Assembly (NCBI GenBank): GCA_038209415.1
Contig: JBBQXT010000001.1
Location: 7,844 to 71,843 of the forward strand
Reading direction: 5' to 3'
Origin: Geobacterales bacterium
GTDB lineage: Bacteria; Desulfobacterota; Desulfuromonadia; Geobacterales; Pseudopelobacteraceae
Length of the DNA: 64,000 bases
Shown here: positions 5,121-36,190 of the stretch, one piece after another
How the letters are laid out: each line of letters starts with the position of its first letter
Numbering within the stretch: the stretch's first letter is position 1
The notes under the pieces: generated by a model
Databases searched by the model: none
What the model was told of the DNA's origin: nothing
The model's input: only the letters and a program-made list of their open reading frames with translations
Program-made: the position numbers and the translations under genes

Positions 5121-5169
5121 CCTTTTACAGGCACCAGGACATCGTTAACAGCATGGAAGCCTCTGCCCA

Positions 5170-12688: not shown

Positions 12689-12772
12689 AAAAGCTCCTTA
12701 ACTACGCTGGAAACTCTTTTAACTTGATATAGTTGATAAAAGTCTCTTTAACCATGCATCACAACGGTGCAG

Positions 12773-12802
12773 GATGCTACAGCAAACATCTGCTGCAGCA
12801 TC
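12773..12802 (-). terminator. Intercistronic stem-loop between the NHL-repeat gene and the giant cytochrome gene (attenuator or RNA-stability element; no U-run)
   Basis: GATGCTACAGCA (12773-12784) pairs with TGCTGCAGCATC (12791-12802), 11 of 12 positions. It lies 13 nt beyond the NHL gene stop. Confidence 0.3.
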
Positions 12803-12814
12803 AGTGTATGGATC

Positions 12815-14668: not shown

Positions 14669-14867
14669 ATACAATTGCCTCCAGACAAAAACGGATTGCC
14701 ATGTGTTTCCGATGAAATCCGATAACGTTACTACCTCTGACAGACCTTGACCAAGCTACTCGCAGGTAACGTAATCCTTGCGTTTTCATTTGAGTGAGAA
14801 TGAAAGATGCAATTTTATGGCCACTTTTAGAATCACTTACGATATTTCTTTCCACAGTACGACCGAA

Positions 14868-16706: not shown

Positions 16707-16715
16707 TTTCTTCTC

Positions 16716-18526: not shown

Positions 18527-18787
18527 GAAGGCGCTCCTGTTGTTGTAGTGAGAAAACGCTGCAAATATATGTTGTAATGATATAAACAAAACCCCTGAAT
18601 AATGCAATAGGAATTGTTTACATTATTCACCGCGTTACACGCGCCAGCGGGATAGGCAGCACTCTTCCGCAGCACTTGGCGAGGCAGACACAGCAGGTCG
18701 TCATGGAAATTGCTTCCATGCCATAGATGGGCTACACTTTAGCAATTAAGTCTGGAAATCCCCTTATATATTCAAATCAGGTCAAGC

Positions 18788-21951: not shown

Positions 21952-21980
21952 TTGTCTCTGCCTTCACCCTGCGCTATAAT
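21952..21980 (+). promoter_or_regulatory. Sigma-70-like promoter for the histidine kinase / NtrC-type regulator operon
   Basis: TTGTCT (21952-21957), a 17-nt spacer, then TATAAT (21975-21980), about 29 nt upstream of the ATG at 22009. Confidence 0.45.
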
Positions 21981-22008
21981 CCAGCCACTTTTTCGAACAA
22001 AGGCCGCC

Positions 22009-23439
22009 ATGAAGCTCAATTCCAAGCTCATCATAATAATGCTCTCCCTGCTGGGTCTGACCATGCTGACCCTCTTCTCCCTCAATCAGTATGCCCAGAA
22101 TGATCTGGTGCGCGAGATACAGGAAAGTTCGCAGGAAATCTCGAAGGCTGTCCAGATGAGTATCGAAGACCTTACCTCCGAGGCCGAAACCTCCCGCCTG
22201 ACCGAATACCTCAGCAAGGCCCGTGAAAAGGGTATCAACGAGATAAATATCATCAACAGTGAAGGGGAGATCATCGACTCCTCGGATCCGGAAAAAATCG
22301 GCAAAAAACGCGAGCTGAAAAAACTGGAGAAGGGTGTCCACGCCGCACCGGCCTCCAGCCGGGGTGCCTCGATCCTTTCCCAGAAACCATACGAAGTGCT
22401 TGTTCCGGTTATCGTCGGTGATGAACTTTTGGGCTACGTCCAGATCAACATGCTGCTGGACAATATCCGCGACCTCCAGCACGCCAATTTTATCCGCCGC
22501 CTGTTTGCAACCAGTATGGTCTTTGCGGTCGGTATAGCCCTGATCATTTTTTTGGCCAGACGATATACCGATCCGATCCATCGCCTGGTCGGAGATTTCA
22601 AGCGAGTCTCGGCCGGTGATCTATCGGTTACCATACCGGTTGAAAGCCATGACGAGATCGGTGAACTGGCCGAAGGTTTCAACAACATGGTCGAGAAGCT
22701 GCGCGAGCGGGAGGCGCTGGAAAAGAGACTCTACGAAGCCGAGCACCTTTCCCGTGTCGGGCAACTGGCCTCGGGCATCGCCCATGAGATCCGTAACCCG
22801 CTCAATTACATCAGCCTGGCCATTGACCATCTCAAGTCGGAACTGCTCCCAAGCTGCGGCGACAAATTTTCAGAACTGACTGAATTGACTGATAAAATCA
22901 AGGAAGAGGTCCGTCGCGCCAACTACATGGTGCTCAATTTCATGAACTATGGCCGACCGCTCAAGCTGCGCCGGGCACTGGTTGCCTATGCTGAAATCCT
23001 GTCCAAGGTACTACCGCTCTTAGACGACCGACTGTCAGAACAGGGGGTTCGCGTAGAGCAGGAGATTGATGCCGGCCTGCCGCTTCTGTGGGTAGACCAG
23101 GAACTGCTGCGCAACTGTATCCTCAATTTCATCAATAACGCTGCCCAGGCCATGAACGATGGCGGAATCATACGTCTGGGGGCCGCTCTGGATAAAAGCG
23201 CCAACCGGGTACGGCTGACCTTTGCCGACCAAGGCAGCGGCATCCAGCAAGAGGACATCTCCAAGATCTTCCAGCCGTACTTTACGACCAAAGATGTCGG
23301 CATCGGTCTGGGTCTGGCCATTACCGAGCGGATCATCAAGGAGCACGGCGGCGAGATCCTTGTGGAGAGCAGACCGGGTGAAGGCACGAAATTCACGGTA
23401 GTGCTGCCGCTTCAGCAGGAACAACAGGAGGCGACCTAA
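22009..23439 (+). CDS. Membrane sensor histidine kinase with HAMP domain
   Basis: N-terminal TM helix, a periplasmic segment of about 150 aa, a second TM helix, a HAMP domain, H-box [14 protein letters not shown], and ATPase G-box GIGLGLAI. Confidence 0.85.
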   Translation: MKLNSKLIIIMLSLLGLTMLTLFSLNQYAQNDLVREIQESSQEISKAVQMSIEDLTSEAETSRLTEYLSKAREKGINEINIINSEGEIIDSSDPEKIGKKRELKKLEKGVHAAPASSRGASILSQKPYEVLVPVIVGDELLGYVQINMLLDNIRDLQHANFIRRLFATSMVFAVGIALIIFLARRYTDPIHRLVGDFKRVSAGDLSVTIPVESHDEIGELAEGFNNMVEKLREREALEKRLYEAEHLSRVGQLASGIAHEIRNPLNYISLAIDHLKSELLPSCGDKFSELTELTDKIKEEVRRANYMVLNFMNYGRPLKLRRALVAYAEILSKVLPLLDDRLSEQGVRVEQEIDAGLPLLWVDQELLRNCILNFINNAAQAMNDGGIIRLGAALDKSANRVRLTFADQGSGIQQEDISKIFQPYFTTKDVGIGLGLAITERIIKEHGGEILVESRPGEGTKFTVVLPLQQEQQEAT

Positions 23440-24833
23440 TGGCTGACATGAAGGGCAGAATACTTATTGTCGATGATGAAAAACTTCAGCGAGAGATCAT
23501 CATCCTGACCCTCAAGAAAGTAGGGCATGAACTGGCTGAAGCAGCCAGTGTCCGCGAGGCGCTGTCGTTGCTGGAAAAGCGTGAGTTCGATCTTATCCTG
23601 ACGGACCTCATGATGCAGGGCCAGACCGGGATGGACCTGCTGGAACTGGTTCAGCAGGTTGATGCAGAACAGTGTATCATCATGATGACGGCCCACGGCT
23701 CGATCAAGACCGCTGTCGAGGCCATCCAGAAGGGTGCCTTCAATTATCTCGAAAAACCGATCGAAGGCGATCAGCTGGTTCTGGCGGTCAGCAAGGCGTT
23801 GGAACACATCGGCCTGGTCCGGGAAAACCGTGTCCTGCGTAAACGTCTGGAATCGGTCCAATCCATACCGTACATACACGGAGAACACCCCAAGATGAAA
23901 GAGGTGTTCCGGATCATCTCCAAGATTGCCGCGTCCAGTTCAAGTGTGCTGATCGTAGGTGAATCGGGCACCGGCAAGGAACTTGTGGCACGGGCCATCC
24001 ACGACGGCAGCCATCGCAAGGACAAACCCTTCATGGCCATCAACTGCGCAGCCATCCCCGACACCCTGATCGAGAGCGAGCTGTTCGGCCACGAAAAAGG
24101 CAGCTTTACCGGAGCCAATACCCGCGAGATCGGCATCTTCGAGGCCGCCAATGGCGGCACCGTTTTTCTGGACGAGATCGGCGAAATGAATGTGGCCATG
24201 CAGGCCAAGCTGCTGCGGGCTATCCAGGAGAAGGAGATCAGGCGGGTGGGCGGCAAGGTCAATATTTCGCTGGACCTGCGCATACTGGCTGCCACCAATC
24301 GGGAACTGGAGCAGGAGATCAAGCGCGGAGCATTCCGCGAAGACCTGTTCTACCGCCTGAACGTGATCCGGATCAGCCTGCCCCCGCTACGTGAACGCGG
24401 CAGTGACCTGAAAACCCTGGCAGAGTATTTCGTCAAAAAATACAGCGAGATCTCGGGAATCGAGGTCGAGGGCATCTCGAAACCAGCTCTGCGGCTGATC
24501 ATGAATTATGCCTGGCCGGGCAATGTGCGCCAGCTTGAGTCGGTTATAGAGCGTTCGGTGCTGATGGCGGAAAGCAATATCATCCAGCCTGAAGACCTGC
24601 CGGCCGAAATCAGCTCCACGATAGGCCTGACCGGCGGCATCAACGTCGACCTGCCGCCGGACGGCATCGACTTTGAAGAACTGGAAAAGGGGATGATCAT
24701 CAAGGCCATGGAGCGGGCCGACTGGATTATCGGCAAGGCGGCGCCGCTCTTGGGGATGAGTTACAAGACCCTGCAATACCGTCTGGAGAAATTCGAGATC
24801 GACCGGCCTGAAAAACGCTCCAAGGCTACATGA
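23439..24833 (+). CDS. Sigma-54-dependent response regulator (NtrC family enhancer-binding protein)
   Basis: REC domain (ILIVDDE...TDLMM), AAA+ domain with GESGTGKE and ESELFGHEKGSFTGA, and a C-terminal Fis-type HTH. The start overlaps the kinase stop (TAATG). Confidence 0.9.
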   Translation: MADMKGRILIVDDEKLQREIIILTLKKVGHELAEAASVREALSLLEKREFDLILTDLMMQGQTGMDLLELVQQVDAEQCIIMMTAHGSIKTAVEAIQKGAFNYLEKPIEGDQLVLAVSKALEHIGLVRENRVLRKRLESVQSIPYIHGEHPKMKEVFRIISKIAASSSSVLIVGESGTGKELVARAIHDGSHRKDKPFMAINCAAIPDTLIESELFGHEKGSFTGANTREIGIFEAANGGTVFLDEIGEMNVAMQAKLLRAIQEKEIRRVGGKVNISLDLRILAATNRELEQEIKRGAFREDLFYRLNVIRISLPPLRERGSDLKTLAEYFVKKYSEISGIEVEGISKPALRLIMNYAWPGNVRQLESVIERSVLMAESNIIQPEDLPAEISSTIGLTGGINVDLPPDGIDFEELEKGMIIKAMERADWIIGKAAPLLGMSYKTLQYRLEKFEIDRPEKRSKAT

Positions 24834-25110
24834 CGGTCAGGCTGTAACCCTGCCCCTTCAGGTAGCTCACAATTTCCTGGATGTGCTCATAGCCGCGTGT
24901 TTCCAGTTTCAGGGAGACATCTTCCTCCTCCACCTGCACGATCTCGTCAACACAGCCGCAGATGATCGGAACCGTCAGTGTCCCAGGCAGCTTGACGGCA
25001 GTACCATCGGTCAATGTTACGCTGGCTGGACGTTCTGTCGGCCTCCCTGCCGCACAGGATGCCGAGAATGCAACCCCGTGGGCATTCATAAGCTTCATTG
25101 ATGAGTTCAT
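24826..25110 (-). CDS. Hypothetical 94-aa protein with an ACT-like C-terminal segment (possibly a gene fragment)
   Basis: The C-terminus VSLKLETRGYEHIQEIVSYLKGQGYSL resembles the end of the regulatory domain of short threonine ammonia-lyases. The N-terminal half has no recognisable motif. The 3' end overlaps the NtrC-type gene by 8 nt. Confidence 0.3.
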   Translation of the reverse strand: MNSSMKLMNAHGVAFSASCAAGRPTERPASVTLTDGTAVKLPGTLTVPIICGCVDEIVQVEEEDVSLKLETRGYEHIQEIVSYLKGQGYSLTVM

Positions 25111-25148: not shown

Positions 25149-26213
<1,065 letters not shown>

Positions 26214-26412: not shown

Positions 26413-26451
26413 AAAAAAGTCCCCGGAGTTTTTCCGGGGACTTTTTTTTTC
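26413..26451. terminator. Bidirectional rho-independent terminator
   Basis: GTCCCCGGA (26419-26427) / TCCGGGGAC (26433-26441), with an A-run before it and a 9-nt T-run after it. It sits between convergent genes. Confidence 0.65.
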
Positions 26452-26459
26452 GTTTCCAA

Positions 26460-28007
26460 TCAGTATTTCGGTTTCTCTGTGCCTTCACCGGGAACGTCGT
26501 GGCCGCCAGCGGAGTGGCACTCACTGCAGTTGGTCTTGTAGAGTTCGTCGCCGATATCAACCGGATGGACAAAATTCCTGACTTCAGTGCCAACGGGAAT
26601 GTTCTCCTGGGTCTGGCCGAGAACGTCATGGCAGATCTTACAGTCCTTGGAGATGATCCTGCCTTCGGCTGATTTGTGTTTTCCGTCGTGGCAGCGGAAA
26701 CAGCCGGGAGTGTAAAAGTGACCGATGTAGTTGGGATAGGTGTTCCACTTGACTTTCATCTTCGGGAAATAGTTCTGCCCGTAAATGTCTTTTACACGGT
26801 CAACAGCCTGGCTGATCGCAGCAGCCTTCTCTTGAGCAACCTTGGGGTAGTTTTTTGCATAATAGATCGGAATTTCCTTGGTAATGCTTGCAATGGCCTC
26901 TTCTTTTGTCTTGTAGGGTCGTTCAAGTATTTCGACAGCCACTTTTTTGATGTACGGGAGTGAACGGTCTATATTGTTTGAGATGAAATTAAAGTCCATT
27001 TCCTCACCCGGTGAGTGATAGATGTGGGTTGGCCGGTTGTGACAATCGGTGCAGTCCATCAAGCGCTTGTTCCCTTTTGCAATCTCGTCCTTGGTAAGCG
27101 GGGTTTCTATGTTTGAGTATTCAGTCAGCTTGCCGTCCTTACCCTTGACTGCGATATAGGGGATATCAAGTCTTTTCTTGTCGCGGGCTATAAAGGTAAC
27201 CTCCTTGCCGATGTGCCAGTGAATACCGTTGATATTGGGGTTCTTGGGATTTCCTCCAATATGAATCAGCATATCGACCATGCGGGGCGAGTTTTCCTCG
27301 TTGGGAGCGTAATGGTTGAAAATCTTTTGACGACCGACGTAAAACTTCTCCGGCCAGTGACAATGCTCACAGGTTTCTCGCGCCGGACGAAGATTTTCAA
27401 TCGGGGTTTCAATGGGGGCCGGGTAGGTGCTGAACGCCACCGCATACAGCTGCCGCAGACCGGAGATTTTAGCTTTTACGTACCAGGCAGCACCAGGACC
27501 AACGTGGCACTCAACGCATTTCACCTTGGCGTGGGGGGAATTCTGCCAGGCGGTGTGTTCGGGCTCCATGACCACATGACAGATCTCACCACAAAAAACG
27601 GTCGATTCGGTGAACTCAAAGCCCTTGATGGAGGCGATAGCTACGATAACGACAAAAAGCACGCTGGCCAGGATAAAGAAGATGAACAGGCGGCGGCGGT
27701 GGGGGTCGTTCAGGTCGAGCCGCGGGAATTTGGGGATCTCTTCTTCAAGTGAGATCATCCCGTCAATGGCTGCCTTGCGGCGTTCGTTGCGCACCCGCCA
27801 GGCCCCGAAGGGAACCAGCAGCAAGCCGAAGATCAGCATGCCGGGGAACATGAAGTAGGTCATAATGCCCAGATAGGCGTGTTCAACGCCGGTAATCGTT
27901 TCCAAAGCAAAAAAGACAACGATGAGACCAGCTGCGGTCATTGCCAGGACCATGCCGATGAGACTGATCAGGTTCCAAGCATAGCCGGCGGTTTTACGAA
28001 TGGCCAT
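26460..28007 (-). CDS. imcH: Inner-membrane multihaem c-type cytochrome with three N-terminal TM helices and a NapC/NirT-like region (ImcH-like)
   Basis: Three hydrophobic helices in the first 140 aa. It has 6 CXXCH motifs (CVECH, CEHCH, CTDCH, CFRCH, CKICH, CSECH) plus one CX3CH (CGEICH), giving 7 candidate sites. This matches the published architecture of G. sulfurreducens ImcH. ATG at 28007 after AAGGAGA. The call is architecture-level only. Confidence 0.7.
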   Translation of the reverse strand: MAIRKTAGYAWNLISLIGMVLAMTAAGLIVVFFALETITGVEHAYLGIMTYFMFPGMLIFGLLLVPFGAWRVRNERRKAAIDGMISLEEEIPKFPRLDLNDPHRRRLFIFFILASVLFVVIVAIASIKGFEFTESTVFCGEICHVVMEPEHTAWQNSPHAKVKCVECHVGPGAAWYVKAKISGLRQLYAVAFSTYPAPIETPIENLRPARETCEHCHWPEKFYVGRQKIFNHYAPNEENSPRMVDMLIHIGGNPKNPNINGIHWHIGKEVTFIARDKKRLDIPYIAVKGKDGKLTEYSNIETPLTKDEIAKGNKRLMDCTDCHNRPTHIYHSPGEEMDFNFISNNIDRSLPYIKKVAVEILERPYKTKEEAIASITKEIPIYYAKNYPKVAQEKAAAISQAVDRVKDIYGQNYFPKMKVKWNTYPNYIGHFYTPGCFRCHDGKHKSAEGRIISKDCKICHDVLGQTQENIPVGTEVRNFVHPVDIGDELYKTNCSECHSAGGHDVPGEGTEKPKY

Positions 28008-28303
28008 TGAACTTCTCCTTGAATACGGTATGATGTATTGCACTGCTGAATTTCAGTTTTTAATCTTTATCTATTTAGCTTTCATCAGCATGATTTGTCA
28101 AAGTTTTTTTGCCAGGTTCCGCATGTCGCAGATCGTTTCGAGCAGTTTTGCCCGTCTACACGATCCAGCAGGAAACATTTCTTGACAAGTACAGTCAAGA
28201 CCTTTATTTTTAAACATCGTTATACATTTGGCAGGCCATGTTCAGGATGCATCAATACTGGGGTGAGCTCCTCTTGCCCAACTCTACCAAGGAGGTGCGT
28301 ACA

Positions 28304-28801
28304 TTGAAGAATCATGTTTGGCGACCACTGTTTATTGTACTGGCAATTGTCGCAGGGATCCTGATCGCTAGAACACTGTTAGTGCCTGAAGACTTCGGTG
28401 TCTGGGAGCGTGGCTACATGTACGGCTGGCACCGCAAGTCCAACGAGGCCGAATGGAAAAAGTATCCCGTTAAATACAAAACAGCGAAAGTCTGCAAAGA
28501 ATGCCACAAAGACAAGTATGACGACATCAAGGACTCTCCTCACGCGTCAATAAGCTGCGAGAACTGTCATGGCCCGAATTATGATCATCCCAATGACCCC
28601 AAGAGATTGGACATCGATCGCCGACGAGATCTGTGCATCCGCTGCCATGCCTATCTTCCCTACCGGGACAGCGCCCGGGCGAAGATCCCGGGCATTGACC
28701 CCCAGACGCATTATCCCACGGAGGAATGCATCTTGTGCCACTATCCGCATAATCCTGTGAAACCGAATCCGAAGTACCACAAAGCAGAGGTGAAACCATG
28801 A
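28304..28801 (+). CDS. Membrane-anchored tetrahaem c-type cytochrome (NrfH/Cbc-type small subunit)
   Basis: One N-terminal TM helix (PLFIVLAIVAGILIA) and 4 CXXCH motifs (CKECH, CENCH, CIRCH, CILCH). A TTG at 28304 lies 7 nt after AGGAGG and is the likely start. Confidence 0.75.
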   Translation: MKNHVWRPLFIVLAIVAGILIARTLLVPEDFGVWERGYMYGWHRKSNEAEWKKYPVKYKTAKVCKECHKDKYDDIKDSPHASISCENCHGPNYDHPNDPKRLDIDRRRDLCIRCHAYLPYRDSARAKIPGIDPQTHYPTEECILCHYPHNPVKPNPKYHKAEVKP

Positions 28802-29583
28802 TTAACCGCCGGGAATTCTGCAAGAAGGCGATGATTATAGCGGGCGGGCTGGTAATACCTCTGACCGCCCTGGAGATATTCGACCCGCGCAGACTCCATG
28901 CCGAAAAAGACGGCAAGGGCAAGGTCCGCTGGGTCTTCCTGGTTGACGTCCACAAGTGCGTCGGCTGCGGATTATGCGTCAAGGCCTGCAAGATAGAGAA
29001 CGACGTCGACTGGGATGCAAATGTTACCAGAACCTGGGTGGAACGTTATGTAGTCACCAAGGATGGCCATACGTACATCGATTCTCCCAAGGGCGCCCGG
29101 GACGGTTTCACCAACCAGAAGATCGACCAGGCCAGTCAGGGTTTCAAGGAGATCAAGCCCGAGGATATCAACAAGGGGTTCTTCGTTCCCAAGCTCTGCA
29201 ACCATTGCGAGAATCCGCCCTGCGTGCAGGTCTGTCCGGTAGGCGCCACCTACCAGACCCAGGAGGGGGTGGTGCTGGTTGACCGTACCTGGTGCATCGG
29301 CTGCGGCTATTGCATCATGGGCTGTCCGTACGGCGTGCGCTACTTCCACCCGGAGCTACACGTGGCCGAGAAGTGCACCCTCTGCTATCATCGGCTTTGC
29401 AAAGGGATGATGCCTGCATGTGTGGACGCCTGCCCGTTTGGTGCGCGCCTAGCCGGCAACATCAGGGACCCGGATGACCCGGTCACCAAGATCATCACCA
29501 AGGAACAGGTCAATGTGTTGAAAGAGGAATTCGGCACCAAGCCGCAGGTATTCTACCTGGGACTCTCAATGGAGGTAAAATAG
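28798..29583 (+). CDS. Tat-exported 4Fe-4S ferredoxin-type subunit (NrfC/PsrB/DmsB-like)
   Basis: Twin-arginine leader MINRREFCKKA and four Cys clusters (CVGCGLCVKAC, CNHCENPPCVQVCP, CIGCGYCIMGCP, CTLC...CVDACP). ATGA overlap with the cytochrome gene. Confidence 0.88.
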   Translation: MINRREFCKKAMIIAGGLVIPLTALEIFDPRRLHAEKDGKGKVRWVFLVDVHKCVGCGLCVKACKIENDVDWDANVTRTWVERYVVTKDGHTYIDSPKGARDGFTNQKIDQASQGFKEIKPEDINKGFFVPKLCNHCENPPCVQVCPVGATYQTQEGVVLVDRTWCIGCGYCIMGCPYGVRYFHPELHVAEKCTLCYHRLCKGMMPACVDACPFGARLAGNIRDPDDPVTKIITKEQVNVLKEEFGTKPQVFYLGLSMEVK

Positions 29584-29585
29584 CC

Positions 29586-30839
29586 ATGGTACACGGTGAA
29601 GCTTGGACCTTGAAGGAATTTTTCGTCTATCCCAATGAGTACATCTACTGGTCGATCCAGATCGTCATGTATCCCTTCATGACCGGTCTCGTGGCCGGGG
29701 CCTTCGTACTCTCGTCCCTCTATCACGTGTTCGGCGTCAAGCAGTTGAAGGATATCGCCCGCTTTTCGCTGGTCTTCTCCCTGGCCCTGCTGCCGGTCGC
29801 TATGTTGCCGCTGATGCTGCACCTGCAGCAGCCGCTCAGGGGCATCAACGTCATGATGACCCCGCATTTCACCTCGGCCATCGCCGCTTTCGGCATTGTC
29901 TTTACAACCTACGGCTTTATCGTGGCGTCGGAAATCTGGTTCGTCTATCGTCAGTTCATTGTAGAAACAGTCCTGGAACTGCGCGCAAAACCACAACGGA
30001 CAACGGTTGAGTCGCTACAGCTCGTCATGTATTCGGCTCTCTCCCTGGGAGCCATGGATATCGGCCCAAAGGCCCTGCACAAGGATGAACGGGCGGTAGG
30101 GATACTGGCAGGTATCGGCATCCCGGTTGCCTGCTTCCTGCATGGTTACGCCGGGTTCATCTTCGGCTCGGTCAAGGCCAATGCCCTCTGGATGACGCCG
30201 CTCATGCCGGTCATCTTCATCTGCTCGGCGATCGTATCGGGGATTGCACTCTGCATTGCAACTTACATCATCACCATGGAAATCCGTAAACGGATCTTCG
30301 CCCGGAAAAGTAAAAACAATCCGAATCTCCCTTCCATCGAGGAACTCAAGAGTGCCGAGATCAACGTGGTTACCATTACCGTCAAATATCTGGTCATGTT
30401 CCTGATCCTGGCCATCACCCTGGAGATGCTCGACCTGATCTTCCGTTCCTACACGGCGGTCAAATCCTGGGATATCCTGCGTCGCATAATCTACGAAAGG
30501 GACTTTTTCAAGATATTTATCCTGCAGTACGGTCTGGGAAATCTTGTTCCATTCATCATCTTCCTATGGCCGGGGCTTACTATCCGGCGGGCCCTGATTG
30601 GCACCTTGCTGGTACTGATGGGGGTCTTCATGATGCGCTGGAATGTCGTTATCGGCGGCCAGGCCTTCTCGGCCTCTTTCTCCGGGTTCATGGATTATCA
30701 ACTCCCCTTCTGGCCGAGCAGCCTCGAATTGTTCAAAGAAGGCTTTTTTGGAGCACTAACAGTTATTACCACGCCATTCGTGCTCTTCTACATGGTCACC
30801 AGGGTCCTGCCGGTCTTCGGGGTCAAGGATTCCCATTGA
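29586..30839 (+). CDS. NrfD/PsrC-like polytopic quinone-interacting membrane subunit
   Basis: 417 aa with about 10 hydrophobic helices. It starts 2 nt after the FeS subunit gene, the typical third gene of NrfCD/Psr/Cbc-type modules. Confidence 0.8.
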   Translation: MVHGEAWTLKEFFVYPNEYIYWSIQIVMYPFMTGLVAGAFVLSSLYHVFGVKQLKDIARFSLVFSLALLPVAMLPLMLHLQQPLRGINVMMTPHFTSAIAAFGIVFTTYGFIVASEIWFVYRQFIVETVLELRAKPQRTTVESLQLVMYSALSLGAMDIGPKALHKDERAVGILAGIGIPVACFLHGYAGFIFGSVKANALWMTPLMPVIFICSAIVSGIALCIATYIITMEIRKRIFARKSKNNPNLPSIEELKSAEINVVTITVKYLVMFLILAITLEMLDLIFRSYTAVKSWDILRRIIYERDFFKIFILQYGLGNLVPFIIFLWPGLTIRRALIGTLLVLMGVFMMRWNVVIGGQAFSASFSGFMDYQLPFWPSSLELFKEGFFGALTVITTPFVLFYMVTRVLPVFGVKDSH

Positions 30840-30931
30840 TGCGTGGCCAGAATATCTGTCCTCATGTGCCGTAGCGGGTAAATACCGGTTAGGATCCGGT
30901 GCTGATAATGTCTGTAGGCGGGAGCCAGAGT

Positions 30932-32743
30932 ATGTCAACACCGGATCAAACCCTTGAAAACCGGGAGAAGGAGCTTGAAAGCCGCATACAGAAGCTTGAG
31001 AAACGGCTGGAGCGGCTGACCGCCAGCATAAGTGACGATGATCCTGTTCCTGCTGCGGCTCCAGCATCCAAGCCGGCTGCACAGCAGAATAAGGTCTATT
31101 CAGACGAGGAGATGCCAGAACTTTCGGAGGAGCTGTTGGGCTGGGTCAGCCGGAATGCCGTCCTGCCTCGCCTCGCTACGGTCTGCTTCCTGATGGTCAT
31201 TGCACTTGTCCTGCGGACCATCACCGACAGCGGTCTTGTCAACAATCTGCTTGGCTCGGGGATCGGCATGGCCTATGCTGCGGGGCTGATGGCCTTCGGC
31301 TGGTACAAATACGGCATGGACAGCCCGCTTGCCCCGGTCTTCGCCGTCTGCGGAACCATACTCATGTCGACCATCGTGGTCGAGACGCACATGCACTTCA
31401 AGGCGCTGCCGCTGGTGCCCGCCTACCTCACGCTGATGGCGACCGGAGTCGGAATGGCGTTCATGAGCCGCCGTTTTAACGCCTTTGTCCCGATTTCGGT
31501 GGGCATTCTCGGCATGTGCTTTGCCGGTGCCGCGATCGACTATCCCAGCCCCTTTTTCCCCTATCTCTCACTGGTTCTTTTCACCGCCAACGTGCTCGGC
31601 TATTTTGCCGCACAGCTGAAGCGCTGCTCATGGTTGCGCTGGTCCGTTATGCTGGTCACCATGGTCATGCTCCAGCTCTGGGGAATCAGGTTGAGTATGC
31701 TGGTGAACAAGGGCGATGCCATCCCGGCTGACCTGGCCCTAGCCTGGTATCTGCCGGTGCTGGTGATTTTCTGCCTGACCTTCACCGCCCTGGCTCTGCT
31801 CGGTATAGTCCGCGGAGCTTCTTCAAAGATTTCAAAATTCGATTTCAGCCTGCCAACCCTCAACGTGATCTGGGCGTTTTCGGCATCCCACCACATGATC
31901 ACCGCCTGGAAAGCGAATGTTTATCTGCTGGGAGTTATCGGGATTCTCTTTGCGGTATGTCATTTCGCACTATCTTTCTGGTTTGCAAAACGCGCCACCG
32001 CAGGGGCACCCGGCACAAACACCTTTGCCTTTGCGGGAGGCACACTCCTGGCCCTGGCTCTTCCGCCCGCAACCGGTACATTCCTTCTGTCGCTGCCGGC
32101 GGTCTCACTGGTAGCCATTACCATGGCGATCGTATCGAGGGTCTGGGAGAACGGTGGTGTCCGTGTAACCACATACCTGATGAACATTTACGCCTGCGGG
32201 ACTTTGGCATTTATGCTGCGCGGCGAGGGGCCGGGAGCCACCGACGTTATCAATATGCTTCCGGCCGGTCTTCTGGCGGTCATCTCCATTTACCACTACC
32301 AATGGTGCCGACAATGGCCGGTCCCACCCAATTCTGCCCTGTTTAATGCCTTTGACCGCAACGACCGGAGCGCGGTCCTGCTTCTGCTGGGTGGGCTCGC
32401 CAGCGGTTTCTTCATGATCAGGATCGCCATATTCCAGGTCATACCCTACATTCCCCAGGCGATGCAGCGAGACATGTTCCGCTGTGGTCAGTCGGTTGTC
32501 ATCAACCTCTCGGTCATCGCCCTGATCACAATCGCCTACCTCAGGCAAAACCGTGAGATTCGCAACGTGGCAATCCTGGTCACCGTGGTCGGAGCGGTAA
32601 AGGTTTTCCTGTACGATCTCCTCGGGACCCATGGCCTGCCGCTGGTCTTCAGTCTATTTTCGTTTGGTATGGCTGCTACCGTGGAATCCGTTGCACTGGG
32701 TAGATGGCAGAAACAGCCAGCGACGCAGGAGAAGACGGTCTAA
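30932..32743 (+). CDS. Large polytopic membrane protein with N-terminal coiled coil (DUF2339-like)
   Basis: N-terminus TPDQTLENREKELESRIQKLEKRLERL, then an Ala/Pro linker and at least 14 hydrophobic helices. The family name is from memory of that architecture, not from a search. Confidence 0.65.
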   Translation: MSTPDQTLENREKELESRIQKLEKRLERLTASISDDDPVPAAAPASKPAAQQNKVYSDEEMPELSEELLGWVSRNAVLPRLATVCFLMVIALVLRTITDSGLVNNLLGSGIGMAYAAGLMAFGWYKYGMDSPLAPVFAVCGTILMSTIVVETHMHFKALPLVPAYLTLMATGVGMAFMSRRFNAFVPISVGILGMCFAGAAIDYPSPFFPYLSLVLFTANVLGYFAAQLKRCSWLRWSVMLVTMVMLQLWGIRLSMLVNKGDAIPADLALAWYLPVLVIFCLTFTALALLGIVRGASSKISKFDFSLPTLNVIWAFSASHHMITAWKANVYLLGVIGILFAVCHFALSFWFAKRATAGAPGTNTFAFAGGTLLALALPPATGTFLLSLPAVSLVAITMAIVSRVWENGGVRVTTYLMNIYACGTLAFMLRGEGPGATDVINMLPAGLLAVISIYHYQWCRQWPVPPNSALFNAFDRNDRSAVLLLLGGLASGFFMIRIAIFQVIPYIPQAMQRDMFRCGQSVVINLSVIALITIAYLRQNREIRNVAILVTVVGAVKVFLYDLLGTHGLPLVFSLFSFGMAATVESVALGRWQKQPATQEKTV

Positions 32744-32789
32744 TCAGGCGAACCCTGTTATCAATCTATCGGATGATGCGGAAAATCAA

Positions 32790-32818
32790 GGGGTGCTTTT
32801 TTCGCACCCCTTTTACTT
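32790..32818 (+). terminator. Rho-independent terminator after the DUF2339-like gene
   Basis: GGGGTGC (32790-32796) / GCACCCC (32804-32810), followed by TTTT. Confidence 0.45.
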
Positions 32819-32875
32819 TGGGTTGGCACCGGCGGATCGGGACAGTTGAACATATGGCGCTTACGTAGCACCATA

Positions 32876-32901
32876 AAAAAGGGGGAGCGTAAGCCCCCCC
32901 T
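32876..32901 (-). terminator. Rho-independent terminator after the CbcL-like gene
   Basis: On the minus strand a GGGGG...CCCCC stem (32882-32886 / 32895-32899) is followed by a U-run (plus-strand A-run 32876-32881). Confidence 0.45.
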
Positions 32902-32929
32902 GTAACATTCCTTCAGTGCAAGATTCCGA

Positions 32930-34819
32930 TCAGTGTCCCCCGCCTCCCATAAAAGCCAGGATCATCAGCAGGAGCAGGCCGATGCCGATCATGAGGGCGG
33001 TGAAGCCAAAGCCCTTGACCAGGAAGTCGTAGACCACTCCGCTGGTCCGCTTGCAGGCGAACTGCTCGGTGATACCTGCTTCTTCATAGCGTTTCCACTG
33101 GTCGCCACGCTCATCGAGCATCTCTTCCTTGGAGATCTGACCATTGAAGATGACGAAGTCCATCGGGAACTTCTCGGGACGTCCATGGGTATTGAAGAAG
33201 TGGACCGTGAAGATGAAGCCGGTGGCCAGGAGCGCCTCATCCGAGTGGATGATGGTTGCTACGTTGAAGGCCCAGCCGGGCAGGAACATGCCGAAGAGCT
33301 CGGGGAACCAGAGCATCAGGCCCGATCCGCCGATGGCGAACATACCCCAGAAGACCGCGACAAAGTCAAATTTTTCCCAGTACGTCCAGCGCTCAAAGGT
33401 CGGCTTAGGCCCTTTAAAGAAGAACCATCTGACCATGCGATAGACATCCACGATATCGCGCAGGTTGAAGCAGAGCGAATCCGTCCCGAAGAGGCGCTGG
33501 AGCGGGTTGCCCTTGATGTCCTTTCGGATGAACAGGAAGTTTATGCTCATGGCGATGGCCGAGCCGAAGTAGATAAAGGTGATCACGGCGCCGATGCGGT
33601 GCAGCAGGCCGGCGTTAGCCGATCCACCATACATGTTCATCATGGCAATGGCCCAGGGCTGGGAGTTGAACTTGAGCGGCAGGCCGGTCAGGGCCAGTAG
33701 CAGAAAGCTGGTGATGACCAGGATATGCAGGAAGATGTGCAGCCTGTTGAAACGGCGATATTGTTTGTGCGCATCCGGAATGACATGTACATGCGTACCT
33801 GCAGCAGTGGCGTGGACATGGTGATGTGCGCCGTTGGCCAGTTTTTCAGCCTTCTCACGATTCTCGACGAAGCCGCGGAACATCCAGAGCAGGGTGTGCA
33901 CCCAGAAGACAGCGAAGGTCGACAGCAAGAGGCCGGTCATGGCGATGAAAGTGTAGAACAGGATCGGATACTTCTCGCGGTCGGTCATCTCGCCGTGAGC
34001 ATAGAATTTTGTGAACAGCACTGTTGCATTCTTATGGCACTGCCCGCAACTCTTGACCAGGTTGGCCGGGTTGACACTGGAGGCCGGGTCGCTCGCGGGG
34101 AGCACCGAGTGAGCCGTATGGCAGTCTGCGCAACCGGCTACCTTCTCCGGGAAGCCGAGGCGGTAGTTCTTGCCATGATAGCTCTCCATGTAGGACTTGA
34201 CGGCTACATTGGTTACATTATTACGCGCCATCATCTTTGCATCACTATGGCACTTCATGCATACCTTGGTGTGAAACTCGCGCTCGTTGTGAGAACCTTT
34301 TGCGCCAAGGGCCTTGATTTCGTGCAGGTTATGACAATCGTGGCAGGCGGCCGAATCCTTATTGCCGCTGGCCACGGCCTTGCCATGCACCGATTTCTGG
34401 TAGACCGCTTCCTTGTCGTGGCACTGGATGCACATGGCAACCGCGATGCGTTTGTCGTTCTTCCAGTAGTTGTGGATATGAACATCGGTGTGGCAGTTGG
34501 CGCAGGTTACACCCTTCTCGGCATGCACACTGGCGTAATGTTCAGCGTTCTGTTTCTTGTGACAGCGTTCGCACTGGACCTTCTGAACCTTGATTTCACC
34601 TTTCATGTGTTTGGCGAGGTCGGTGATATCCACATGGCAGCTGGTACAGGCGTTTTTGCCATGAACCGACGCGGCAAAGGCCTGAACAGAAAATTTGTTG
34701 CTGTGGCATCCCAGACAGGTAGCCGGATCAATGGCCATCCCCTGTTCTGCGAAGGCAGATGCAGAAAAAGAGACCAGCATACTCAGTAACAACAACAGAT
34801 GTTTTCCGTACAAGACCAT
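32930..34819 (-). CDS. cbcL: Fused periplasmic nonahaem c-type cytochrome / HydC-FdnI-like membrane b-type cytochrome (CbcL-like)
   Basis: Signal peptide, then 9 CXXCH motifs in the first 265 aa (CLGCH, CTSCH, CERCH, CANCH, CIQCH, CHDCH, CMKCH, CADCH, CGQCH), then about 6 TM helices with conserved His residues. This matches the published CbcL architecture. The probable start is the second ATG (34819), 6 nt after AGGAGG. Confidence 0.8.
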   Translation of the reverse strand: MVLYGKHLLLLLSMLVSFSASAFAEQGMAIDPATCLGCHSNKFSVQAFAASVHGKNACTSCHVDITDLAKHMKGEIKVQKVQCERCHKKQNAEHYASVHAEKGVTCANCHTDVHIHNYWKNDKRIAVAMCIQCHDKEAVYQKSVHGKAVASGNKDSAACHDCHNLHEIKALGAKGSHNEREFHTKVCMKCHSDAKMMARNNVTNVAVKSYMESYHGKNYRLGFPEKVAGCADCHTAHSVLPASDPASSVNPANLVKSCGQCHKNATVLFTKFYAHGEMTDREKYPILFYTFIAMTGLLLSTFAVFWVHTLLWMFRGFVENREKAEKLANGAHHHVHATAAGTHVHVIPDAHKQYRRFNRLHIFLHILVITSFLLLALTGLPLKFNSQPWAIAMMNMYGGSANAGLLHRIGAVITFIYFGSAIAMSINFLFIRKDIKGNPLQRLFGTDSLCFNLRDIVDVYRMVRWFFFKGPKPTFERWTYWEKFDFVAVFWGMFAIGGSGLMLWFPELFGMFLPGWAFNVATIIHSDEALLATGFIFTVHFFNTHGRPEKFPMDFVIFNGQISKEEMLDERGDQWKRYEEAGITEQFACKRTSGVVYDFLVKGFGFTALMIGIGLLLLMILAFMGGGGH

Positions 34820-35054
34820 TGACATCCTCCTGAATCTACAATGAATTTAGCCACACTAAAACCTGCGTAGTGTATACATAAAGACGGCATGGCGCAATAA
34901 AAAAATTGGACACAGTATACAGATTCATGGAGCAATAAATACGATTTTCAATATGTTACTGCAATTGTGCCTTGACCGGAATAATACACGGATCTACACG
35001 GGAATCTCAAGCGAGTTTACAAGTCGGCAGATATGGCTTGCTTGACTTTGCAGT

Positions 35055-35116: not shown

Positions 35117-36190
35117 ATGCACAAAAAACTTTTCATTCCCGGCCCCGTCGAGGTTCATCCGGATATCCTGGCTGCCATGGCAACCCCCATGATTGGCCAT
35201 CGCATGAAGGAGTATGCCGAATTGCACGGCAGGGTCACCTCGGGACTAAAAAAACTGCTCTTCACCAGTGACAGGGTATTTCTGGCCACCTCCAGCGCCT
35301 TCGGCGTCATGGAGGGCGCGGTGCGCAACCTGGTCGGCACACGTTGCGCCAACTTCTGTAACGGTGCCTTTTCCGACAAATGGCACGATGTCACCCTGCG
35401 CTGCGGCAAACAGGCCGACGCCATCCGTTTCGACTGGGGCCGACCGGTCACCCCCGAGGCCGTTGAACAGGCCTTGTCCACCGGAAAGTACGACAGCATG
35501 ACCATGATCCATAACGAGACCTCGACCGGGGTCATGTCACCCCTGCCTGAAATCGCCGAGGTCATGCGGAAGTTTCCGGAGGTCATGTTCATCGTGGATA
35601 CGGTGTCGTCCATGAGTGCCTTGAAGGTACCGGTGGATGAACTGGGGATCGACAGCTGCATTTTCGGCGTCCAGAAGGCCTTTGCCCTGCCGCCGGGACT
35701 GACAGTGTTCACCGCCAGCGAGAAAGCCCTCCAGCGTGCCGCCGGTATGGAAGGGCGCGGCTATTACTTTGATTTCATGGAATTTGCCGCCAGTGATGCC
35801 AAGGACAACACCCCCTCTACCCCCTGTATCTCATTAATTTATGCCATGGACCGTCAACTGGAGCGCATCTTCGCCGAAGGGCTTGAGGCCCGCTGGGCCA
35901 GACACGCCAACCTGGCCGGCTACGTGCGGGACTGGGTCACCTCCCGCGGTTTCGAACTCTTCCCCGAAGCCCGTTACTGCTCACAGACACTGACCTGCAG
36001 CCGTAACAGCCGCGGCATCGACCTGGCAACACTCAAGAAAAAACTTGCCGAAGCCGGCTTCGCCTTTGACGACGGATACGGAAAGATCAAAGGGCAGACC
36101 TTCCGCATCGCCCATATGGGAGACATGACCAGAGTCGATCTTGATGAGCTATTATGCGCAATAACAACCATCATGCCTGAGTTGGCATAA
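35117..36190 (+). CDS. Class V PLP-dependent aminotransferase (serine-pyruvate / alanine-glyoxylate aminotransferase family)
   Basis: 357 aa. It has a FGVQKAF lysine region typical of the AGXT family, and its overall length and N-terminus (LFIPGPVEV) fit class V aminotransferases. Confidence 0.8.
   Translation: MHKKLFIPGPVEVHPDILAAMATPMIGHRMKEYAELHGRVTSGLKKLLFTSDRVFLATSSAFGVMEGAVRNLVGTRCANFCNGAFSDKWHDVTLRCGKQADAIRFDWGRPVTPEAVEQALSTGKYDSMTMIHNETSTGVMSPLPEIAEVMRKFPEVMFIVDTVSSMSALKVPVDELGIDSCIFGVQKAFALPPGLTVFTASEKALQRAAGMEGRGYYFDFMEFAASDAKDNTPSTPCISLIYAMDRQLERIFAEGLEARWARHANLAGYVRDWVTSRGFELFPEARYCSQTLTCSRNSRGIDLATLKKKLAEAGFAFDDGYGKIKGQTFRIAHMGDMTRVDLDELLCAITTIMPELA

What the first reader, a model, noticed from the sequence alone, without database searches (positions are those of the whole stretch)
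26460..34819. Three different quinol-to-periplasm electron-export modules clustered in one 8.4-kb island
**Seen.**
- An ImcH-like gene (3 TM helices plus 7 haem sites) lies on the minus strand.
- Diverging from it is an operon of a TM-anchored tetrahaem cytochrome, a Tat-exported 4-cluster FeS protein and a NrfD-like membrane subunit. Its gene junctions are a 4-nt overlap and a 2-nt gap.
- A DUF2339-like membrane protein follows.
- Converging on that is a CbcL-like fusion of 9 c-type haems with a HydC/FdnI-like membrane domain.

**Established.** In G. sulfurreducens, ImcH is needed for high-potential acceptors and CbcL for low-potential ones. From memory, they are encoded at separate loci (GSU3259 and GSU0274). 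Several Cbc complexes of NrfCD-like composition are additional candidates.

**Inference.** Bringing all three architectures together suggests a redox-potential switchboard that could be inherited or regulated as one unit. Spot checks suggest the ImcH-like gene has a visibly lower G+C than the cbc-like operon.
Basis: partly seen in the sequence, partly recalled or inferred. Interest (0 to 1): 0.75.

Follow-up and report, generated by a model that had tools for sequence, protein, structure and literature searches.

The report
Conserved cluster of respiratory quinol oxidases

Summary
Window 26460-34825 encodes an ImcH orthologue, a CbcSTU (Cbc4)-like operon, a DUF2339 membrane protein and a CbcL-family fusion.

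- **ImcH:** 68% identical to G. sulfurreducens ImcH, with 3 TM helices, one CX3CH and six CX2CH.
- **CbcSTU-like operon:** a 1-TM tetrahaem cytochrome, a Tat-exported 4x[4Fe-4S] protein and a NrfD-like subunit.
- **CbcL:** 9 CxxCH plus a b-type membrane domain with four invariant His.

- **Synteny:** The locus sits between the same trxB and aminotransferase genes in many Geobacteraceae. Two long metagenome contigs have exactly this order. Six GTDB species carry all modules within 10 kb.
- **G. sulfurreducens:** It keeps only the aminotransferase-imcH junction.
- **Composition:** imcH G+C is within the window's normal range, and imcH orthologues are also slightly G+C-poor.
- **Transcription:** The genes form three units with their own predicted terminators.
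- **Other phyla:** In 37 of 58 species, a CbcL-type gene lies immediately upstream of imcH on the same strand.

The locus therefore looks like an expanded, ancient cbcL-imcH pair. The families are known. The wide cbcL-imcH(-DUF2339) linkage appears undiscussed in the literature I could search. Interest is moderate to low.

The parts
25182..26213 (+). trxB (thioredoxin-disulfide reductase); conserved left-hand synteny anchor of the locus
   Evidence: NCBIfam TIGR01292 scores 382.6 bits against a cut-off of 343. A trxB gene sits next to imcH in L001, L002, L004, L006, L011, L017-L020, L022, L089 and L090.
26413..26447 (.). Strong bidirectional hairpin terminator between trxB and the 3' end of imcH
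   Evidence: A 16-bp stem followed by a T-run; the stem is flanked by A-runs and T-runs on both sides.
26460..28007 (-). imcH orthologue: 3 TM helices, a NapC/NirT-like region, one CX3CH and six CX2CH (the ORF as listed extends to 28043)
   Evidence: It is 68% identical over 507 aa to the G. sulfurreducens ImcH cluster, and the alignment starts at M13.
28008..28303 (.). Divergent promoter region between imcH and cbcS
   Evidence: TTGACA-type -35 boxes are conserved on both strands, and a GGAGGTG ribosome-binding site is conserved, in the alignment with L089, L090, L004 and L001. A promoter-like site lies at 28182-28210.
28304..28801 (+). cbcS-like membrane-anchored tetrahaem cytochrome c (TTG start; the ORF as listed starts at 28238)
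   Evidence: It has 4 CxxCH and 1 TM helix. Homologues are 157-168 aa. The conserved ribosome-binding site and TTG start are shown. The layout (anchor, about 30-residue linker, first haem motif at residue 64) matches published CbcS.
28798..29583 (+). cbcT-like Tat-exported 4x[4Fe-4S] protein (NrfC/DsrO/TtrB-like)
   Evidence: Pfam Fer4_11 gives E=1.6e-24. NCBIfam TtrB, DsrO and NrfC all score below their cut-offs. The RREF motif and four Cys clusters are visible in the sequence. The gene overlaps cbcS by 4 nt.
29586..30839 (+). cbcU-like NrfD-family integral membrane quinol-interacting subunit
   Evidence: Pfam NrfD gives E=8.5e-35. About 10 hydrophobic helices are predicted. The gene starts 2 nt after cbcT.
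30899..32743 (+). DUF2339 polytopic membrane protein with an N-terminal coiled-coil helix; function unknown; probably co-transcribed with cbcSTU
   Evidence: Pfam DUF2339 scores 29.9 bits, below the cut-off. All 17 homologues hit only DUF2339. No terminator was predicted between cbcU and this gene. Homologues lie next to imcH or cbcL in 15 of 84 loci scanned, and also in L089 and L090.
32788..32812 (+). Terminator-like hairpin after the DUF2339 gene
32880..32901 (-). Terminator-like hairpin after cbcL
32930..34825 (-). cbcL orthologue: signal peptide, 9 CxxCH, and a C-terminal dihaem-b-type membrane domain
   Evidence: It is 73-88% identical to Geobacteraceae homologues. Haem-motif spacing equals that of published CbcL entries. 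Four His are invariant: H367, H409, H527 and H542. PF01292 gives E=0.004.
35117..36190 (+). Class-V aminotransferase; conserved right-hand synteny anchor, and the same gene that flanks imcH in G. sulfurreducens
   Evidence: Pfam Aminotran_5. It is 74.8% identical to the gene next to imcH in L082. It lies next to cbcL in L003, L011, L014, L085, L087 and L090; in L089 one extra cytochrome gene separates them.

Best explanation
This is a vertically inherited chromosomal locus of a Geobacteraceae bacterium. It encodes three independent menaquinol:periplasmic-cytochrome oxidoreductases plus one uncharacterised membrane protein.

1. **ImcH** is a NapC/NirT-like, 7-haem protein. By homology it oxidises menaquinol on the periplasmic side and reduces PpcA-type cytochromes. 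In G. sulfurreducens it is needed for acceptors above about -0.1 V.
2. **A Cbc4-type CbcSTU complex.** A haem-less NrfD-like subunit contacts quinol. Electrons then pass through a Tat-exported four-cluster FeS protein to a membrane-anchored tetrahaem cytochrome, which hands them to periplasmic cytochromes.
3. **CbcL** is a dihaem-b membrane domain fused to a 9-haem periplasmic domain. In G. sulfurreducens it is needed below about -0.1 V.

The genes form three transcription units: imcH, cbcSTU-DUF2339 and cbcL. The arrangement is best read as an ancient cbcL-then-imcH tandem, into which a cbcSTU/DUF2339 unit is inserted on the opposite strand. The model organism G. sulfurreducens has secondarily dispersed these genes.

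**Shown here:** the architectures, the orthology of ImcH and CbcL, the synteny and the predicted terminators.

**Inferred from published work on G. sulfurreducens:** the redox-potential roles and the electron paths.
For: **Architecture and family assignment**
- ImcH is 68% identical to the cluster that contains PCA ImcH. The published GSU3259 complementation primer matches just upstream of that gene in L082.
- CbcL is 75% identical to Gura_0125 and 78% identical to the DSM 9736 protein. Both are listed as CbcL homologues, with the same nine haem-motif spacings.
- The Cbc4 composition, gene order and CbcS domain layout match the literature.

**Synteny**
- L089 (a 3.69-Mb contig) and L090 have the same gene order and the same flanks.
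- L002, L003, L005, L006, L011 and L017 hold all modules within 10 kb.
- G. sulfurreducens keeps the aminotransferase-imcH junction. Pelotalea chapellei and a Desulfuromonadales genome assembled from a metagenome keep the aminotransferase-cbcL junction.
- In all 10 Geobacteraceae-like loci that hold cbcL, it lies upstream of imcH on the same strand.
- In 37 of 58 species of other phyla, a CbcL-type ORF lies directly upstream of imcH on the same strand, with gaps from -47 to 407 nt.

**Composition and transcription**
- G+C is ordinary.
- Terminators bound three units.

**Published functions:**
Against: - Orthology of the middle operon to GSU0068-0070 was not tested by sequence. I could not retrieve those proteins, and some relatives carry a second, paralogous tetrahaem/FeS/10-TM module beside it (L002, L005, L006).
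- No expression or phenotype data exist for this organism.
- The direction of evolution (ancestral cluster versus repeated assembly, or transfer of a whole operon between phyla) is a parsimony argument, not a tree-based test.
- The DUF2339 assignment of the window protein itself is below Pfam's threshold.
- Promoter and terminator calls are consensus matches. The promoter count is not above the shuffled expectation.
Confidence: 0.8

Rival explanations
1. This is a recently assembled or horizontally acquired 'redox-potential switchboard' island. It brings together three modules that are normally separate and is regulated as one unit.
For: - The modules are at separate loci in G. sulfurreducens, G. 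uraniireducens, G. soli, M18 and M21.
- imcH and cbcS have the lowest G+C of the six genes.
- L017-L019 carry a divergent ImcH (57-58% identity) at the same locus, although their CbcL is 86% identical. This shows that imcH can have a separate history.
Against: - The same flanks and the same order occur in several related genomes.
- imcH G+C lies at z=-1.5 and GC3 at z=-0.5 within the window, and orthologues show the same slight dip.
- No mobile-element genes lie at the borders.
- There are three units on alternating strands with separate terminators.
- No sigma-54 site or riboswitch was found.
- No conserved operator appears in the imcH/cbcS intergenic alignment.
- imcH and cbcL are reported as constitutive in G. 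sulfurreducens.
Confidence: 0.08
2. ImcH and the CbcL-type cytochrome, possibly with the DUF2339 protein, are functional partners rather than mere alternatives. They could form a physically associated or obligately co-expressed two-gear quinol oxidase. This would explain why the genes are kept adjacent across phyla.
For: - There is tight same-strand adjacency in 37 of 58 non-Geobacteraceae species. The gaps run from -47 nt, several are 0-30 nt or overlapping, and only two exceed 160 nt.
- The orientation is invariant in Geobacteraceae.
- DUF2339 recurs in imcH clusters of Geobacteraceae, KSB1, Ignavibacteriota and Bacteroidota.
- Levar et al. 2014 state that the partners of ImcH are unknown.
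Against: - Published G. sulfurreducens genetics, as summarised, show each protein is needed in a different potential window. The genes work while unlinked.
- In this window the two genes are separate transcription units.
- DUF2339 has no invariant His or Cys, so it is unlikely to be a redox protein.
- Adjacency of alternative respiratory enzymes can reflect co-regulation or co-transfer alone.
Confidence: 0.2
3. The middle operon is not an electron-export (Cbc) complex. Instead it is the membrane-anchor module of a periplasmic reductase system (Nrf-, Psr/Ttr-, Dsr- or Qrc-like), and it lies beside imcH and cbcL by chance.
For: - The best NCBIfam hits of the FeS subunit are TtrB (211 bits), DsrO (183 bits, cut-off 200) and NrfC.
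- The membrane subunit weakly hits NrfD, DsrP and QrcD.
Against: - All these hits are below the curated cut-offs.
- No molybdopterin, NrfA, DsrMK or QrcB catalytic gene lies adjacent.
- The tetrahaem/FeS/NrfD composition and order equal published Cbc4.
- The operon keeps its place next to imcH, DUF2339 and cbcL in many genomes.
Confidence: 0.07

Closest known systems
ImcH (GSU3259) of Geobacter sulfurreducens
   Same: It has 3 TM helices, a NapC/NirT-like region, one CX3CH plus six CX2CH, and about 510 aa. It is 68% identical to the window protein. The gene appears monocistronic, and in both genomes the same aminotransferase gene forms one edge of the locus.
   Different: The window protein has a 7-residue insertion in the loop before TM3. 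Here imcH is separated from the aminotransferase by cbcSTU, the DUF2339 gene and cbcL, and its other flank is trxB rather than glycogen-metabolism genes.
CbcL (Cbc1, GSU0274) of G. sulfurreducens
   Same: It has nine CxxCH at the same spacing as GSU0274 in Table S2 (window positions are all +3). It also has six predicted or near-predicted TM helices and conserved His ligands. The window protein falls well inside the published 57.6-100% identity range of the Geobacter group.
   Different: Direct identity to GSU0274 was not measured. Here the gene lies 4.9 kb upstream of imcH, whereas the two are far apart in G. sulfurreducens.
Cbc4 complex CbcSTU (GSU0068-0070)
   Same: The gene order is S-T-U. 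CbcS has an N-terminal anchor, a roughly 30-residue linker and four CxxCH, with enough extra His for bis-His ligation. CbcT has four [4Fe-4S] motifs. CbcU is a haem-less integral membrane subunit.
   Different: Sequence orthology was not tested. Here the operon is followed by a DUF2339 gene and embedded between imcH and cbcL. The physiological role of Cbc4 is unknown even in G. sulfurreducens.
imcH/cbcL neighbourhoods already present in published data
   Same: In 'Desulfuromonas soudanensis', DSOUD_0207 (ImcH) and DSOUD_0214 (CbcL) are drawn in one figure. Zhong & Shi 2018 Tables S2 and S3 give adjacent locus tags for Syntrophus sp. GWC2_56_31, Syntrophobacterales GWC2_56_13 and Desulfuromonadaceae GWB2_53_15. 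The tags are near-adjacent for Geobacteraceae GWB2_52_12 and GWC2_55_20 and for Geoalkalibacter ferrihydriticus.
   Different: Those papers do not comment on the adjacency in their text. They do not mention the Cbc4-like operon or DUF2339 in between.
Rhodoferax ferrireducens cluster with two cymA genes plus mtrH
   Same: Several alternative quinol oxidases are encoded in one gene cluster, and the authors proposed that they serve acceptors of different potential.
   Different: The families differ (CymA and MtrH with MtrABC), and that cluster includes the outer-membrane conduit.
NrfCD-type quinone modules (alternative complex III ActABC core, Qrc, DsrJOP, NrfBCD)
   Same: All share the triad of cytochrome c, a periplasmic four-cluster FeS protein and a NrfD-family membrane subunit.
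   Different: All equivalog models score below their cut-offs. No catalytic or extra subunits of those complexes are encoded nearby.

Membership tests
ImcH | Three N-terminal transmembrane helices | tested here: met
   The hydropathy scan finds segments at 22-53, 57-82 and 115-146.
ImcH | NapC/NirT-like region around TM3 and the first haems | tested here: met
   PF03264 gives E=1.9e-9 and 37.9 bits against a cut-off of 24.1, over residues 119-207. NrfH in the PDB gives E=3e-5.
ImcH | One atypical CX3CH followed by six CX2CH | tested here: met
   CGEICH lies at residue 151, and CxxCH motifs lie at 176, 225, 331, 448, 468 and 506. The spacing parallels Table S3 entries.
ImcH | At least 53.6% identity to Geobacter-group ImcH, including the characterised GSU3259 | tested here: met
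   The protein is 68% identical to P0113, whose 90% cluster contains AAR36650.1, 'Cytochrome c-type protein ImcH'. It is 76% identical to Gura_0861, which is listed in Table S3.
ImcH | Required for reduction of high-potential acceptors | not testable with these tools
   This needs genetics and electrochemistry.
CbcL (Cbc1) | Periplasmic N-terminal domain with nine CxxCH after a signal peptide | tested here: met
   There are nine CxxCH at 37, 60, 85, 108, 132, 161, 189, 232 and 260. GSU0274 has 34, 57, 82, 105, 129, 158, 186, 229 and 257. A signal-like N-terminus ends in AFA-EQ.
CbcL (Cbc1) | C-terminal HydC/FdnI-like dihaem cytochrome b domain with about six TM helices | tested here: inconclusive
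   Five to six hydrophobic segments are predicted. PF01292 reaches only E=0.004 and 17.4 bits against a cut-off of 30.1. A 49%-identical split homologue (L078 9097-9945) passes at 30.8 bits.
CbcL (Cbc1) | Conserved histidine ligands in the membrane domain | tested here: met
   H367, H409, H527 and H542 are invariant in 16 CbcL-type sequences from several phyla.
CbcL (Cbc1) | Sequence orthology to GSU0274 | tested here: inconclusive
   The GSU0274 sequence was not obtained. The window protein is 75% identical to Gura_0125 and 78% identical to the DSM 9736 protein, both published CbcL homologues.
Cbc4 (CbcSTU) | Membrane-anchored tetrahaem CbcS: anchor of about 29 residues, linker to about residue 58, four CxxCH | tested here: met
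   With the TTG start, the TM helix spans residues 3-31 and the first CxxCH is at residue 64. There are four motifs and nine His in total.
Cbc4 (CbcSTU) | CbcT iron-sulfur protein with four [4Fe-4S] clusters | tested here: met
   Four Cys-cluster motifs and an RREF Tat motif are in the sequence. Fer4_11 and Fer4_7 hits are.
Cbc4 (CbcSTU) | CbcU integral membrane subunit, with gene order S-T-U | tested here: met
   Pfam NrfD gives E=8.5e-35.
Cbc4 (CbcSTU) | Sequence orthology to GSU0068-0070, as opposed to other NrfCD-type modules | not tested
   The G. sulfurreducens proteins were not among the 120 listed hits. A paralogous module exists beside it in L002, L005 and L006.
DUF2339 (PF10101) | Match to the Pfam model above the gathering score | tested here: inconclusive
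   The window protein scores 29.9 bits against 33.6. All 17 aligned homologues hit only DUF2339, with a best E of 7e-20. A local profile links them.
Nrf / Psr-Ttr / Dsr / Qrc anchor modules | Curated equivalog score reached and catalytic partner genes adjacent | tested here: not met
   TtrB scores 211 against a cut-off of 416, DsrO 183 against 200, NrfC 150 against 378, NrfD 31 against 348 and QrcD 23 against 570. No catalytic subunit genes lie nearby.

The most novel reading that the evidence does not exclude
cbcL-type followed by imcH is an ancient gene pair that is inherited together. It is found as a tight same-strand tandem in Acidobacteriota, Ignavibacteriota, Bacteroidota, Nitrospirota and Binatia, and in expanded form here. 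A DUF2339 membrane protein is a recurrent third partner. The two cytochromes may therefore act as a coupled 'two-gear' quinol oxidase, or even as a complex. On this reading the unlinked layout of the model organism G. sulfurreducens is the exception, and it has hidden the partnership. DUF2339 would then be the first accessory factor assigned to this system.
Probability: 0.2. Interest if true: 0.6.

Novelty: new member of a known kind. Interest (0 to 1): 0.35.

Why it matters
ImcH, CbcL and the Cbc complexes decide how much energy Geobacter-type bacteria conserve at a given acceptor potential. They are also used as marker genes for extracellular electron transfer in metagenomes.

- **Ancestral linkage.** The three modules form one conserved locus in many relatives, and cbcL-imcH adjacency extends across phyla. 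Linkage is therefore probably the ancestral state. Synteny could be used to call true orthologues where sequence alone is ambiguous.
- **Unstudied candidates.** The Cbc4-like operon and the DUF2339 protein are embedded in the locus but have not been studied in this context. They become candidates for genetic tests.
- **No new respiratory module.** The finding does not reveal a new kind of module.

Tried and rejected
- **Exact look-up of the window CbcL.** The sequence is not on record.
- **GSU3259 primers.** The reverse complementation primer did not match L082 within 1 mismatch. The forward primer matched exactly.
- **G. sulfurreducens CbcL and CbcS.** Direct orthology tests for these two were therefore impossible.
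- **Local iterative profile for the CbcL membrane domain.** It drifted to 255 ORFs and was discarded. It was replaced by non-iterative tblastn and blastp.
- **Sigma-54 promoter scan.** There was no site near the cluster, and the window as a whole was below expectation.
- **Rfam.** No riboswitch or RNA family was found in the window.
- **Intergenic palindrome at 28180-28200.** It is not conserved in relatives, so it was not taken as an operator.
- **PDB sequence searches.** For ImcH, CbcS, CbcL and the DUF2339 profile, the only hits were a weak NrfH match and coiled-coil noise.
- **Structure prediction of DUF2339.** The single-sequence model had pLDDT 46.7, so no fold search was run.
- **Foreign origin of imcH.** This was rejected on composition.
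- **DUF2339 as a redox protein.** This was rejected for lack of invariant His or Cys.

Full report
**1. What is in the sequence**

- **ImcH-like gene.** The minus-strand gene at 26460-28043 has six CxxCH and one CGEICH motif. It has three N-terminal hydrophobic helices and a NapC/NirT Pfam match above the gathering score. Its alignment with G. sulfurreducens ImcH begins at Met13, so the real start is probably 28007.
- **Divergent operon.**
  - The first gene encodes a one-helix tetrahaem cytochrome.
  - The second encodes a protein with an RREF twin-arginine signal and four Cys clusters (Fer4_11, E=1.6e-24).
  - The third encodes a NrfD-family membrane protein (E=8.5e-35).
  - The 4-nt overlap and the 2-nt gap are as stated.
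- **Start of the tetrahaem gene.** Homologues are 157-168 aa. An alignment of the intergenic region with four related loci shows a conserved GGAGGTG ribosome-binding site followed by TTG-AAA-AAC-CAT. The gene therefore starts at 28304 and encodes 165 aa.
- **DUF2339 gene.** The next gene (30899-32743) scores 29.9 bits on DUF2339, just below the cut-off. All 17 homologues I aligned hit only that family.
- **CbcL-like gene.** The converging gene (32930-34825) has a signal peptide, nine CxxCH and five to six hydrophobic helices.

**2. Family assignment**

*ImcH.*
- The protein is 68% identical (345/507) to P0113.
- The 90%-identity cluster of P0113 contains AAR36650.1, named 'Cytochrome c-type protein ImcH' of strain PCA.
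- The published GSU3259 complementation primer matches exactly, 8 nt upstream of that gene, in a 3.79-Mb genome (L082).

*CbcL.*
- The protein is 73-88% identical to Geobacteraceae proteins.
- These include Gura_0125 (75%) and the Geobacter sp. DSM 9736 protein (78%). Both are listed as CbcL homologues in Table S2 of Zhong & Shi 2018.
- The nine haem motifs have exactly the spacing of GSU0274, shifted by three residues.
- Four histidines in the membrane domain are invariant across 16 CbcL-type sequences from several phyla.
- The HydC/FdnI-type Pfam model is hit only weakly (E=0.004). A 49%-identical split homologue passes it.

*Middle operon.*
- Its composition and order are those published for Cbc4: CbcS GSU0068, CbcT GSU0069 and CbcU GSU0070.
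- With the corrected start, CbcS has the published layout: an anchor of about 29 residues, a linker to about residue 58, and then four haems.
- I could not obtain the GSU0068-0070 sequences, so orthology is not proven. Some relatives have a second, paralogous tetrahaem/FeS/10-TM module next to it.
- Nrf, Ttr, Dsr and Qrc equivalog models all score below their cut-offs, and no catalytic partner genes are nearby.

**3. Is it an island?**

Composition says no.
- Against 48 genes of the window, imcH has z=-1.5 for GC and z=-0.5 for GC3. cbcS is equally low.
- In most of the related loci compared, imcH and cbcS are slightly poorer in G+C than their neighbours, so this is a property of the genes.

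Synteny says no as well.
- A scan of one genome per GTDB species with an ImcH profile gave 80 loci.
- Among the 22 Geobacteraceae-like loci, L002, L003, L005, L006, L011 and L017 carry imcH, the cbcSTU-like operon, DUF2339 and cbcL within 10 kb. These usually lie between the same trxB and aminotransferase genes as in the window.
- A 3.69-Mb closed metagenome contig (L089; ImcH 89.5% and CbcL 87.8% identical) and a 557-kb contig (L090) have exactly the window's order and flanks.
- G. sulfurreducens retains the aminotransferase directly beside imcH.
- Pelotalea chapellei and a Desulfuromonadales genome assembled from a metagenome retain the aminotransferase beside cbcL, without imcH.
- Both junctions of one ancestral block thus survive separately in different lineages.
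- Geotalea toluenoxydans and another contig have cbcL alone.
- Locus tags in the published tables tell the same story:
  - Adjacent in Syntrophus sp. GWC2_56_31, Syntrophobacterales GWC2_56_13 and Desulfuromonadaceae GWB2_53_15.
  - One to four genes apart in Geobacteraceae GWB2_52_12 and GWC2_55_20 and in Geoalkalibacter ferrihydriticus.
  - Far apart in G. sulfurreducens, G. soli, G. pickeringii, G. uraniireducens, M18 and M21.
- 'Desulfuromonas soudanensis' has the two genes seven tags apart, and they are drawn in one figure.
- None of these papers comments on the adjacency.

**4. Beyond Geobacteraceae**

- In all 10 Geobacteraceae-like loci that contain cbcL, it lies upstream of imcH on the same strand. 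The same is true in the window.
- Among the 58 loci from other phyla, 42 contain a CbcL-type b-domain.
- In 37 of the 58, a CbcL-type ORF lies directly upstream of imcH on the same strand, with gaps of -47 to 407 nt. By phylum the counts are:

| Phylum | Loci with the adjacency |
|---|---|
| Acidobacteriota | 14 of 27 |
| Ignavibacteriota | 10 of 12 |
| Bacteroidota | 8 of 9 |

  The adjacency also occurs in Nitrospirota and Binatia.
- These neighbours are of two kinds:
  - fusions of 11-13 haems with a cytochrome b561 domain;
  - a 19-haem cytochrome followed by a separate protein of about 283 aa with 46-50% identity to the window's membrane domain.
- In an Ignavibacteriaceae genome assembled from a metagenome (L078), the imcH neighbourhood holds two CbcL-type modules, ImcH, a Rieske/cytochrome b/11-haem set and a DUF2339 protein.
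- DUF2339 occurs in 15 of the 84 loci scanned, including four outside Geobacteraceae, and also in L089 and L090, which were fetched afterwards. It has no invariant His or Cys and no relative in the PDB.
- The simplest reading is that the window shows an old cbcL-imcH pair, with a cbcSTU/DUF2339 unit inserted on the opposite strand. This is a parsimony inference, not a reconciled phylogeny.

**5. Regulation**

- Predicted terminators lie after imcH (26413-26447, shared with trxB), after DUF2339 (32788-32812) and after cbcL (32880-32901). None lies between cbcU and DUF2339.
- This gives three units: imcH, cbcSTU-DUF2339 and cbcL.
- Conserved TTGACA-type -35 boxes face both ways in the imcH/cbcS spacer. 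The local palindrome is not conserved.
- No sigma-54 promoter and no Rfam element was found.
- In G. sulfurreducens, imcH and cbcL are reported to be constitutively expressed, with only cbcBA induced.
- Inheritance as a unit is therefore supported, but regulation as a unit is not.

**6. Mechanism (from the literature, not tested here)**

- **ImcH** oxidises menaquinol at the periplasmic side, reduces PpcA, and is required above about -0.1 V.
- **CbcL** is required below that potential.
- **CbcS** reduces PpcA in vitro, and its deletion has no Fe/Mn-oxide phenotype.

**7. Verdict**

The gene identities are right for ImcH and CbcL and very probably right for Cbc4. The 'assembled switchboard' idea is replaced by a conserved, probably ancestral locus that the model organism has broken up. 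The families are known, and many public genomes share the arrangement, so this is a new member of a known kind. The broad cbcL-imcH(-DUF2339) linkage, which I did not find discussed in the searchable literature, is the only part with some novelty.

Noticed in passing
One search hits P0025, P0035, P0043, P0047-P0050, P0054, P0059, P0060 and P0073: Many close ImcH homologues (69-75% identical, about 655 aa) carry a C-terminal extension of about 140 residues with Cache sensor domains (PF08269, PF17200). In P0025 the extension follows the last haem motif. This looks like ImcH fused to a periplasmic ligand-binding domain. The window protein lacks it.
   Followed up: partly
L017, L018 and L019 compared with window 26460-28043: These loci have CbcL 86% and TrxB about 83% identical to the window, at the same chromosomal site. 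Their ImcH is only 57-58% identical to every other Geobacteraceae ImcH. This suggests either a distinct ImcH subclade or a replacement of the gene in place.
   Followed up: partly
window 9314-18607 (-): A cluster here resembles a porin-cytochrome outer-membrane conduit. It comprises:
- a 21-haem, 1124-aa cytochrome with Geobacter CxxxxCH/CxxCH domains;
- an NHL/fn3 protein;
- a 10-haem cytochrome with a lipoprotein-like N-terminus;
- a 5-haem cytochrome;
- a 472-aa protein with a weak beta-barrel hit.
   Followed up: partly
window 3727-9111: A haem-supply block lies in the same window as six multihaem cytochrome genes that carry 56 haem sites. Only one gene has a family hit: a CcsA-type cytochrome c assembly gene at 4311-5120 (Pfam). 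Three calls rest on N-terminal sequences alone: a HemA-like gene (5170-6474), a HemC-like gene (6621-7589) and a CobA/HemD-like gene (7516-9111).
   Followed up: no
window 21952-24833 and 24826-25110: - A Cache/HAMP histidine kinase and an NtrC-type sigma-54 response regulator lie two genes from imcH.
- NtrC-type activators also occur near imcH clusters in about a dozen loci of other phyla. The family is too abundant for this to mean much.
- The 94-aa ORF at 24826-25110 resembles only a fragment of threonine ammonia-lyase, matching positions about 188-240 of a 380-position model. L089 and L090 have a full-length PALP gene beside trxB there. This suggests a rearrangement breakpoint.
   Followed up: partly
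L002 5892-8910, L005 6518-9426 and L006 6053-8973: In three related species, a second, paralogous module sits between imcH and the cbcSTU-like operon. It comprises a 4-haem 1-TM protein, an FeS protein of about 310 aa (34% identical to CbcT) and a 10-TM protein. These genomes therefore have four quinol-oxidase-type modules in a row.
   Followed up: no
L091 11933-12608; L017 and L019 upstream of cbcL: Small trihaem (PpcA-like) genes lie directly beside cbcL in these loci, and L017-L019 also have 12-haem cytochrome genes there. The window has no trihaem gene.
   Followed up: no
L078 11656-14672, and similar sets in L040, L045, L048, L054, L059 and L073: In Ignavibacteriota and Bacteroidota, imcH is followed by a Rieske protein, a bc1-type cytochrome b and an 11-haem cytochrome (Pfam confirmed for L078 only). 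This is a further putative quinol:cytochrome c module in the same cluster.
   Followed up: partly
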